Shown here one piece after another: positions 1,082 to 1,653 of a DNA stretch of 64,000 nt. The translations under genes were made by a program, and so were the position numbers. This stretch comes from Escherichia coli (GTDB taxonomy: Bacteria > Pseudomonadota > Gammaproteobacteria > Enterobacterales > Enterobacteriaceae), in NCBI RefSeq assembly GCF_044647545.1, contig NZ_CP172818.1. One strand, 5' to 3'. The notes under the pieces are model-generated. The model was given only the letters and a program-made list of their open reading frames with translations. It did not search any database and was not told where the DNA came from. Positions within the stretch are counted from its first letter, which is position 1. Each line of letters begins with the position of its first letter.

Positions 1082-1450
1082 CGTAACTTACTCATTATTC
1101 TTACATTGACGACTAAGCTGCGGGCAAAGTAACGCCTTTCCGGGTGTGAACCGATGGCCTCGTGTCTAGTCGCGTCGCCAACCTCACGGTTATCGTCAGC
1201 TCAAAGAGGCGCAGAGTGTCGGTTGCCCGTTTTTCATGCGGAAAAACAGCGCAATTATCAAAGAAACAGACTGGGTATTACTCTCCAGAAATATTTCCAT
1301 CTACCGGTAAGGACTGCAACCCGCAGCCCGCTAACTGCCTGAAAGATCAATACGTCTTACGCCATTGCTGCGTGGATGATCGGTCGGGCAAAATGGGTTA
1401 TTCCGTAAAATTTCTTGTTTTAACAAGGATGGACACGGAAACGGCCTCAT
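1082..1450 (-). promoter_or_regulatory. rne long 5' leader / promoter region (autoregulatory UTR)
   Basis: About 570 bp non-coding gap between rne start (1081) and rluC (1654); E. coli rne is known to carry a long structured 5' UTR; exact boundaries not determined here. Confidence 0.45.
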
Positions 1451-1653
1451 TATTCCACTGCAAGCCTTGTTATAGCAAGATGACTTTTACCATTTATCAC
1501 CTGCTTACTCACAGTTTTTTCACTTCTTGCTGGTGATTGGTTTAATAACCATCAATAAAGTGATCACGTAGTGAAGTAATAAGGTGCAAAACTAAATATA
1601 AGCATAGAAAAATGAGTGGCGCGAATCCTGTTGGCTAATTAGAATCGCCCACC

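What the first reader, a model, noticed from the sequence alone, without database searches (positions are those of the whole stretch)
1082..1653. Long rne leader with an overlapping plus-strand ORF
The ~570 bp between the divergent rne and rluC starts contains a 124-aa plus-strand ORF (1162..1536) that overlaps the rne 5' leader. Its composition does not look protein-like, so the region is more likely dominated by the rne regulatory UTR.
Basis: partly seen in the sequence, partly recalled or inferred. Interest (0 to 1): 0.2.

Follow-up and report, generated by a model that had tools for sequence, protein, structure and literature searches.

The report
Spurious yceQ ORF over rne leader
The 124-codon open reading frame between rne and rluC is the long-annotated but non-coding "yceQ" of E. 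coli: it lies antisense to the well-known structured 5' leader and promoter of the RNase E gene. That RNA, not a protein, explains why the DNA is conserved, so the finding is ordinary and already explained.

Summary
The window is E. coli chromosome. The rne–rluC intergenic region is 1082–1653 (572 bp) and holds a plus-strand GTG ORF at 1162–1536 (124 aa). This ORF is an in-frame superset of the K-12 gene yceQ (b1085, window 1216–1536).

- Rfam rne5 (RF00040) matches 1106–1442 on the minus strand at 260 bits (gathering score 180).
- In 112 Enterobacterales rne–rluC regions the frame is intact only in three Escherichia. The other 109 carry frameshifting indels, in-frame stops, or both, despite 42–91% nucleotide identity.
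- Substitutions show no codon periodicity, unlike flanking rne and rluC.
- The RNA structure is 88% paired across 49 species (33–43% in slid controls), with compensatory changes at 48 of 84 pairs.
- Published work reports no ribosome-profiling reads, orientation-biased transposon insertions, and failure of synonymous recoding at three yceQ codons.

The rest of the region holds the deeply conserved rne p1 promoter (1449–1478) and the promoter of rluC, which is listed in the literature as leaderless.

Verdict: already known, low interest. The side observation most worth noting is ERIC-like ~125-nt elements inserted in the rne leader of other genera.

The parts
1..1081 (-). 5' part of the rne coding sequence (RNase E); start codon at 1081–1079; the gene runs off the window start
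   Evidence: Translation [21 protein letters not shown].... Annotated as rne in E. coli genomes that are 100% identical over the query.
1082..1442 (-). rne 5' UTR of the p1 transcript (361 nt), the autoregulatory leader
   Evidence: Rfam RF00040 rne5 matches 1106–1442 at 260.1 bits against a gathering score of 180, E = 2.7e-82, full model 1–333. The 361-nt length is stated in PMC10989929. Structure is 88% paired across 49 species with 48 of 84 pairs compensatory.
1401..1440 (-). hp1, the 5'-terminal hairpin of the leader (UTR nt 3–42)
   Evidence: Rfam structure projected onto E. coli. Helices 1–2 have 9 of 11 pairs with changes on both sides, but only 64–81% of cells are paired in the MAFFT alignment.
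1335..1391 (-). hp2 (UTR nt 52–108), the most conserved element. By my knowledge of Diwa 2000 and Schuck 2009 it is the RNase E-binding sensor for feedback.
   Evidence: Its apical 20-mer GCAGCAATGGCGTAAGACGT was found in at least 120 Enterobacterales genomes. It lies between rne and rluC in the 112 loci where both flanks could be located. Helices 3–4 show compensatory changes, e.g. CG:19, AU:14, UA:5 at columns 79/113. Its antisense translation gives the 'conserved' peptide YVLRHCC of the YceQ homologues.
1115..1329 (-). hp3, a long-range, multi-branched domain (UTR nt 114–328)
   Evidence: The closing helix (columns 130–140 with 394–404) is 97.6% paired. Inner helices 12–15 are 98–99.6% paired with compensatory changes, e.g. 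UA:27, CG:21 at columns 295/353.
1082..1114 (-). Single-stranded 3' segment of the leader carrying the rne ribosome-binding region (…AAUAAUGAGUAAGUUACG-AUG)
   Evidence: Unpaired in the Rfam-projected structure. 92% mean identity across 112 species at 1082–1101. Its role as the ribosome-binding site is inferred.
1449..1478 (-). rne p1 promoter: -35 TTGCTA (1478–1473), 18-nt spacer, TG-extended -10 AATAAT (1454–1449); the transcription start would fall at about 1442
   Evidence: It is the only promoter-like hit in 1000–1750. Both hexamers and the flanking AAAGTCA are at least 90% conserved in 112 species. The Rfam match starts at 1442.
1162..1536 (+). 124-codon GTG ORF. Its in-frame subset 1216–1536 is annotated as yceQ (b1085) in K-12. 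Judged non-coding.
   Evidence: The frame is broken in 109 of 112 species. There is no codon periodicity. Pfam and NCBIfam give no match. Only 30 representatives were found among 1.84 billion proteins, of very variable length. Nothing is annotated there in 40 of 40 sampled PGAP genomes. Literature.
1480..1597 (.). Least conserved spacer between the two promoters. By the title of Ow et al. 2002, two further rne promoters (p2, p3) exist; I did not map them and do not know that they lie here.
   Evidence: Identity falls to 27–68% here. An IS1 sits at 1487/1488 in E. coli Z22-2. Ow et al. 2002 could not be read.
1598..1653 (+). rluC promoter: A-rich block at 1604–1612, invariant GTGGCGC at 1616–1622, -10 TAGAAT at 1640–1645, a GC-rich 8-nt stretch, then the ATG at 1654 with no Shine-Dalgarno
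   Evidence: Conserved blocks across 112 species. rluC is listed among 'known leaderless genes' of E. coli in PMC8794815. The promoter assignment is inferred from sequence and spacing.
1654..2613 (+). rluC coding sequence (23S rRNA pseudouridine synthase), 319 aa
   Evidence: Strong third-position variation (entropy 0.08/0.03/0.84) served as the coding control.

Best explanation
The region is the shared control region of two divergent genes, and the plus-strand ORF is a by-product of it, not a gene. On the minus strand, the p1 promoter (1449–1478) starts a 361-nt leader (1442–1082). This leader folds into hp1, hp2 and the branched hp3, followed by an unpaired ribosome-binding segment. By established work on E. 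coli itself (Jain and Belasco 1995; Diwa 2000; Schuck 2009), RNase E binds hp2 and speeds decay of its own mRNA, which gives feedback control. On the plus strand, a conserved promoter just before 1654 drives rluC, which is reported to be leaderless. The 124-codon frame at 1162–1536 (yceQ) is open in Escherichia only. It looks 'conserved' as protein fragments elsewhere because the complementary RNA and promoter are conserved. Shown here: the Rfam match, the structure covariation, the loss of the frame outside Escherichia, the lack of codon periodicity and the lack of a protein family. Taken from the literature: the feedback mechanism, the absence of translation, the pseudo-essentiality and the recoding failure.
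For: - **RNA family:** Rfam rne5 scores 260 bits over 1106–1442 on the minus strand.
- **RNA structure:** 88.0% of pair cells are standard pairs, against 33–43% when partners are slid by 1–3 columns. 48 of 84 pairs have changes on both sides (24–31 in slid controls). 0 of 500 shuffles reach the observed values. RNAalifold independently recovers the long-range hp3 helices, with 21 of 45 pairs compensatory.
- **Region conserved:** intergenic length is about 552–580 nt in most of 112 species from Photorhabdus to Escherichia, with 70–92% identity blocks over the leader and p1.
- **Frame not conserved:** it is intact in 3 of 112 species, all Escherichia. Citrobacter and Salmonella, at 87–91% identity, already carry stops or frameshifts. 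The longest plus-strand ORFs vary in frame and position.
- **Codon position:** entropy by position is 0.19/0.13/0.17 (close set) and 0.41/0.33/0.44 (Enterobacteriaceae). The controls are rluC 0.08/0.03/0.84 and rne 0.02/0.01/0.45.
- **Protein searches:** Pfam-A and NCBIfam give no hit. There are 32 clusters among 5.8 billion and 30 representatives among 1.84 billion proteins, 21–156 aa apart from three tandem-repeat junk ORFs, with differing ends even within E. coli and Shigella.
- **Annotation:** PGAP annotates nothing there in 40 of 40 sampled E. coli genomes.
- **Natural disruption:** a viable isolate carries IS1 inside the ORF.
- **Literature:** no ribosome-profiling reads in three conditions, the ORF disrupted in some strains, and transposon insertions tolerated only in the orientation that drives rne. 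CRISPRi strand effects point to rne. Three yceQ codons could not be replaced by the synonymous TCG→AGC / TCA→AGT recoding.
Against: - The ORF is longer than 99% of shuffles of this region.
- An AAGAGG motif lies 6 nt upstream of the GTG at 1216, so a Shine-Dalgarno-like site exists.
- The minimum free energy of the leader is not exceptional (-103 kcal/mol, z = -0.66). The case for structure therefore rests on covariation and the Rfam model, not on thermodynamic stability.
- The comparison loci were selected by an exact 20-mer in hp2, so that stretch is invariant by construction and the sample is biased toward leaders that keep hp2.
- I had no expression data of my own. The absence of translation rests on one paper's statement about three growth conditions.
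Confidence: 0.95

Rival explanations
1. yceQ is a real but very young, Escherichia-restricted protein-coding gene (a de novo gene). It would have arisen antisense to the rne leader and be translated at low level or only under untested conditions.
For: The frame is open for 124 codons in E. coli and E. albertii, and for 127 codons in a second Escherichia lineage. Such length is rare in shuffles (0.8%). A Shine-Dalgarno-like AAGAGG precedes the GTG at 1216.
Against: Within Escherichia the DNA is 98–99% identical, so an open frame is the default and shows no selection. Predicted products differ at their ends even within E. coli and Shigella through frameshifts. No plus-strand promoter-like site precedes it, and rluC transcription reportedly starts at its own ATG. 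No ribosome-profiling reads were found. The composition is atypical. Failure of synonymous recoding shows that the nucleotides matter.
Confidence: 0.03
2. The plus strand yields a non-coding antisense RNA that pairs with the rne leader and modulates RNase E expression (an excludon-like arrangement). The ORF would be incidental to it.
For: ExcludonFinder lists rne–yceQ among 16 divergent excludons called in at least 50% of 58 MG1655 transcriptomes.
Against: That call extends each annotated gene's transcript by coverage on its own strand. The 361-nt rne leader covers most of annotated yceQ (227 of 321 nt), so an overlap follows from the annotation whatever the plus-strand signal. No plus-strand promoter-like site is present. 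Conservation is fully accounted for by minus-strand structure and promoters. Transposon insertions oriented to drive rne are tolerated within yceQ.
Confidence: 0.04
3. A small upstream ORF on the rne mRNA itself (minus strand 1300–1196, 34 aa, ATG) is translated and takes part in leader regulation.
For: It exists in E. coli and E. albertii, with an ATG inside hp3.
Against: The start codon is ATA, ATC or AAG in Salmonella and Citrobacter, and end points vary from 2 to 68 codons among 49 species. It lies inside base-paired hp3.
Confidence: 0.02

Closest known systems
RNase E 5' UTR element (Rfam RF00040, rne5), the autoregulatory leader of E. coli rne
   Same: It is this very element: a full-length model match at 260 bits on the rne strand directly upstream of the rne start codon, with hp1, hp2 and hp3 in the expected order.
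   Different: Nothing differs in E. coli. In other genera the same leader carries ~125-nt or ~250-nt ERIC-like insertions that the Rfam consensus does not include.
yceQ (b1085), 'DUF2655 domain-containing protein YceQ', listed as essential in the Keio and PEC collections
   Different: The name implies a protein family. The current Pfam-A and NCBIfam copies give no match, and the literature concludes it does not encode a protein and is not essential in itself.
Spurious ORFs called over conserved non-coding RNAs, of the kind collected in AntiFam (from my own knowledge)
   Same: A 'conserved hypothetical protein' family whose conservation comes from an RNA on the opposite strand. The best-conserved peptide YVLRHCC is the antisense reading of the invariant hp2 apex.
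   Different: I did not test membership of AntiFam, because that library is not among the tools.
Leaderless mRNAs of E. coli (rhlB, rluC, racR, hprR, dicA, cohE as listed in PMC8794815)
   Same: rluC in this window has no Shine-Dalgarno sequence, and a conserved TAGAAT lies 8 nt before its ATG.
   Different: This concerns the neighbouring gene, not the ORF. The transcription start site itself was not seen here.

Membership tests
Rfam RF00040 rne5 (RNase E 5' UTR element) | Covariance-model score at or above the curated gathering score (180 bits) | tested here: met
   260.1 bits, E = 2.7e-82, model positions 1–333 of 333, window 1106–1442 minus strand.
Rfam RF00040 rne5 (RNase E 5' UTR element) | Lies directly upstream of rne on the same strand | tested here: met
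   The match ends 24 nt before the rne start codon at 1081. The same arrangement holds in the 112 loci of other species where both flanking genes could be located.
Rfam RF00040 rne5 (RNase E 5' UTR element) | Conserved secondary structure (hp1, hp2, hp3) supported by compensatory changes | tested here: met
   88% of cells paired against 33–43% in slid controls. 48 of 84 pairs change on both sides. 0 of 500 shuffles reach the observed values. Caveats: the structure was projected from the Rfam consensus through E. coli, and the hp2 apex is invariant by sampling.
Rfam RF00040 rne5 (RNase E 5' UTR element) | Mediates RNase E-dependent feedback on rne mRNA decay | not testable with these tools
   Established experimentally for this E. 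coli sequence (Jain and Belasco 1995; Diwa 2000; Schuck 2009, as cited in PMC10989929). Those papers were not readable here.
YceQ / DUF2655 protein family | Match to a curated protein-family model | tested here: not met
   No Pfam-A or NCBIfam family at E-value up to 1. The DUF2655 name survives only in source annotations.
YceQ / DUF2655 protein family | Reading frame preserved among homologous loci | tested here: not met
   Intact in 3 of 112 species. The other 109 carry frameshifting indels, in-frame stops, or both. Predicted homologues range from 21 to 156 aa with different ends.
YceQ / DUF2655 protein family | Substitution pattern of a coding sequence (third-position excess) | tested here: not met
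   Entropy 0.19/0.13/0.17 against 0.08/0.03/0.84 in rluC and 0.02/0.01/0.45 in rne, for the same species.
YceQ / DUF2655 protein family | Evidence of translation | not testable with these tools
   Price et al. report no ribosome-profiling reads in three conditions.
Leaderless mRNA (for the neighbouring rluC) | Transcription start at or within a few nucleotides of the start codon, and no Shine-Dalgarno sequence | tested here: inconclusive
   No Shine-Dalgarno sequence in TCGCCCACC-ATG, and a conserved TAGAAT ends 8 nt before the ATG. The start site itself was not observed. rluC is listed as a known leaderless gene in PMC8794815.
ERIC / IRU intergenic repeat (for the insertions in other species' rne leaders) | Imperfect palindromic element of about 125 bp, dispersed in many intergenic copies in enterobacterial genomes | tested here: met
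   Insertions are mostly 108–130 nt, with one truncated 89-nt copy and ~250-nt double copies. The Citrobacter copy finds a median of 5, and up to 11, unannotated places per E. coli genome at 60–82% identity.
ERIC / IRU intergenic repeat (for the insertions in other species' rne leaders) | Similarity to the ERIC consensus core | tested here: inconclusive
   4–11 mismatches to the 22-nt ERIC1R and ERIC2 primer sequences, which I recalled from memory. No consensus library was available.

The most novel reading that the evidence does not exclude
In the genus Escherichia only, the frame opened by chance antisense to the rne leader is occasionally transcribed and translated. It would be a proto-gene caught at birth, whose sequence cannot evolve freely because every nucleotide is held by the RNA and promoter on the other strand.
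Probability: 0.03. Interest if true: 0.4.

Novelty: already known. Interest (0 to 1): 0.08.

Why it matters
It matters mainly as a matter of annotation quality. yceQ is still carried as a protein-coding gene ("DUF2655 domain-containing protein") in the reference K-12 record. It was counted among essential genes in the Keio and PEC lists, and three of its codons blocked a genome-recoding design. The data here confirm, independently of the published expression and transposon work, that the constraint lies in the rne leader RNA and promoter. Treating such frames as coding misleads essential-gene lists, protein-family databases and synonymous-recoding schemes. Nothing here opens a new question about RNase E regulation itself.

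Tried and rejected
- **Protein families:** the ORF found nothing in Pfam-A or NCBIfam, even at E-value up to 1.
- **Distant homologues:** the exhaustive HMMER search found only antisense-of-leader fragments plus three tandem-repeat junk ORFs (P0035, P0038, P0044), which I rejected as biased-composition matches.
- **Thermodynamic stability:** the leader's z-score is -0.66, which is not significant, so I did not use stability as evidence.
- **Primary papers:** Diwa 2000 and Ow 2002 are not held. A search for 'hp2' with rne returned an unrelated rplM study. PMC8361080 only cites Ow 2002. As a result rne promoters p2 and p3 are not mapped.
- **ExcludonFinder:** its 'rne–yceQ divergent excludon' was considered as evidence for plus-strand transcription and rejected, because the call follows from the annotation plus the rne leader.
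- **Minus-strand uORF:** the 34-codon uORF in the leader is not conserved.
- **ERIC in the window:** a search for the ERIC core found no copy.
- **σ54 or other alternative-sigma reading:** I considered this by eye for the invariant GTGGCGC block before rluC. I dropped it because the downstream element is not conserved.

Full report
**What the window is.** The 751 bases around the finding are 100% identical to many E. coli chromosomes and occur in 5425 of 5426 complete E. coli genomes, between rne and rluC. K-12 coordinates equal window coordinates plus 1,143,286. rne is on the minus strand with its start codon at 1081–1079. rluC is on the plus strand at 1654–2613.

**The observation.** The ORF listing reports a plus-strand ORF at 1162–1536, GTG start, 124 aa, so the coordinates are exact. 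The K-12 MG1655 record annotates the in-frame subset 1216–1536 (GTG start, 106 aa) as yceQ, b1085, "DUF2655 domain-containing protein YceQ". An ORF of at least 124 codons arises in 0.8% of 5000 dinucleotide-preserving shuffles of the region. That is unusual locally but not on a genome scale. Its composition is unlike the neighbouring genes: GC at codon position 1 is 0.40 against 0.63–0.64, with 6.5% Cys, 1.6% Glu and 4% Ala.

**What lies on the other strand.** Rfam's RNase E 5' UTR element (RF00040) matches 1106–1442 on the minus strand over the full model, at 260.1 bits against a gathering score of 180 and E = 2.7e-82. The single promoter-like site in 1000–1750 is on the minus strand: -35 TTGCTA at 1478–1473 and a TG-extended -10 AATAAT at 1454–1449. 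This puts the transcription start at about 1442 and gives the 361-nt leader described for E. coli (PMC10989929). Projecting the Rfam structure onto the sequence gives hp1 at 1440–1401, hp2 at 1391–1335, the branched hp3 at 1329–1115, and an unpaired ribosome-binding segment at 1114–1082. Of the ORF's 375 nt, 281 are leader (140 of them base-paired) and 94 overlie the p1 promoter and upstream DNA.

**Comparative sample.** The apical 20-mer of hp2 (GCAGCAATGGCGTAAGACGT) found at least 120 Enterobacterales genomes, one per species. In 112 of them I could delimit the rne–rluC intergenic region. Its length is about 552–580 nt in most, from Photorhabdus and Xenorhabdus to Escherichia. Identity to E. 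coli across all 112 is 70–92% over most of the leader and the p1 promoter. It drops to 27–68% in the spacer at 1480–1600 and rises again to 87% at 1602–1621.

- Following the E. coli frame through the alignment, only 3 of 112 species have neither a frameshifting indel nor an in-frame stop: E. coli, E. albertii and a second E. coli-like lineage. Citrobacter and Salmonella, at 87–91% identity, already have stops at codons 49–106 or frameshifts. More distant genera have up to 18 frameshifting indels and 9 stops. The longest plus-strand ORFs differ in frame, position and length from genus to genus.
- Column entropy by codon position in the yceQ frame is flat: 0.19/0.13/0.17 for the close set, 0.41/0.33/0.44 for Enterobacteriaceae and 0.85/0.83/0.85 for all species. 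The first 372 nt of rluC give 0.08/0.03/0.84 and of rne 0.02/0.01/0.45 in the same species.
- I counted the Rfam-projected structure on a plain MAFFT alignment of 49 diverse leaders (A1). 88.0% of pair cells are standard pairs, against 33–43% when the 3' partners are slid by 1–3 columns. 48 of 84 pairs have changes on both sides, against 24–31 in the slid controls. The covariation score is 0.219 against 0.06–0.09, and no shuffle of 500 reaches any observed measure. RNAalifold on its own recovers the long-range hp3 helices, with 21 of 45 pairs compensatory.
- Caveats: the hp2 apex is invariant by the way the loci were sampled; the structure was derived from a consensus that includes E. coli; and the leader's minimum free energy is unremarkable (z = -0.66).

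**Protein-level evidence.** No Pfam-A or NCBIfam model matches the ORF. The word-indexed search of 5.8 billion clusters gives 32 hits, and the exhaustive HMMER search of 1.84 billion representatives gives 30. All informative hits come from Enterobacteriaceae, are 21–156 aa long, and cover different parts of the query. Three longer hits are translations of tandem repeats. Within E. coli and Shigella the predicted products already differ at their C-termini, or are truncated, through frameshifts (P0001, P0002, P0007, P0009, P0016). The shared core "[28 protein letters not shown]" is the antisense reading of hp2 and the base of hp3; YVLRHCC is exactly the invariant 20-mer read backwards. NCBI's pipeline annotates nothing under the ORF in 40 of 40 E. 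coli genomes sampled across the ranking. One isolate, Z22-2, carries IS1 within the ORF at 1487/1488.

**Literature.**
- Goodall et al. saw the same orientation bias. They attribute the Keio and PEC "essentiality" to loss of the rne promoter.
- Rousset et al. explain the CRISPRi strand effect in the same way.
- Zürcher et al. report that three codons in yceQ cannot be replaced by synonymous TCG→AGC / TCA→AGT recoding. The annotated frame has such codons at 1219, 1234, 1258, 1384 and 1447. The first three are spaced 15 and 24 nt apart, close to the 14 and 24 nt in the paper, and fall in hp3: two in helices and one in an unpaired segment between hairpins. Identifying these with the paper's three codons is my inference.
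- ExcludonFinder lists rne–yceQ as a divergent excludon. Its method makes that call follow from the rne leader overlapping the annotated gene, so it is not evidence of plus-strand expression.

**The rest of the region.** The p1 promoter hexamers and a flanking AAAGTCA are at least 90% conserved in all 112 species. Just before rluC there are conserved blocks: an A-rich tract at 1604–1612, an invariant GTGGCGC at 1616–1622, and TAGAAT at 1640–1645. A GC-rich 8-nt stretch then leads to the ATG, with no Shine-Dalgarno sequence. rluC is listed among the known leaderless genes of E. coli (PMC8794815), which fits. It also means the rluC transcript does not cover the ORF. No plus-strand promoter-like site precedes the ORF. 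The two additional rne promoters named in the title of Ow et al. 2002 could not be placed, because the paper is not held.

**Other strand, other frames.** The 62-aa plus-strand ORF at 1154–1342 has no family match. A 34-codon ATG ORF on the rne mRNA (1300–1196) loses its start codon in Salmonella and Citrobacter and ends anywhere between 2 and 68 codons elsewhere. No reading frame on either strand behaves as coding.

**Conclusion.** It is the rne autoregulatory leader and promoter, with the spurious annotated ORF yceQ on the opposite strand, next to the promoter of rluC. Novelty: already known. Interest: low.

Noticed in passing
Related loci aligned to window 1300 and 1404: L035, L038, L070 (Citrobacter); L081 (Klebsiella oxytoca); L039, L088, L104 (Kluyvera); L110 (Raoultella); L094 (Enterobacter sp. 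10-1); L060, L054; and L043, L116, L099, L104 at 1404: The rne leader of several genera carries an imperfect-palindrome insertion, mostly 108–130 nt (one 89-nt copy in Kluyvera gsp3), or ~250 nt as a double copy. It sits either at the hp3 junction (E. coli-equivalent 1300) or between hp1 and hp2 (1404, in Erwinia and one Kluyvera). The Citrobacter copy matches a dispersed unannotated repeat in E. coli, with a median of 5 places per genome at 60–82% identity, so it looks like ERIC/IRU. Two recurrent insertion sites inside the feedback leader of the RNase E gene seem worth a look, because ERIC RNA is itself reported (from memory) to be an RNase E target.
   Followed up: partly
window 1598–1653: rluC has no Shine-Dalgarno sequence, and a conserved TAGAAT ends 8 nt before its ATG, consistent with its listing as a leaderless gene (PMC8794815). 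An invariant GTGGCGC sits at 1616–1622, where a -35 hexamer would be, but it does not resemble TTGACA. What reads it is unexplained.
   Followed up: partly
L122 (E. coli Z22-2, NZ_CP159750.1), equivalent to window 1487/1488: An IS1 is inserted about 10 bp upstream of the rne p1 -35 hexamer, inside the yceQ frame. It separates p1 from everything further upstream. The isolate is evidently viable.
   Followed up: partly
window 1082–1653 compared with 112 loci: The rne–rluC spacing is held at about 552–580 nt across Enterobacterales when insertions are set aside. This holds even though the 1480–1600 stretch is poorly conserved in sequence.
   Followed up: partly
window 1000–1750, E. coli genome collection: Five of the 5439 matching places for this chromosomal region lie on records labelled as plasmids. 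I do not know whether these are mislabelled replicons or real.
   Followed up: no
window 2640–2720: Two REP-like palindromes lie between rluC and the convergent yceF: GCCTGATAAGGCG…CGCCGCATCAGGC and GCCGGATGCGACG…CGCATCCGGC. I read them by eye only.
   Followed up: no
window 1216–1536 (annotation): RefSeq still names the K-12 product 'DUF2655 domain-containing protein', although the Pfam-A copy searched here has no model that matches it. The family name appears to have outlived the family.
   Followed up: partly
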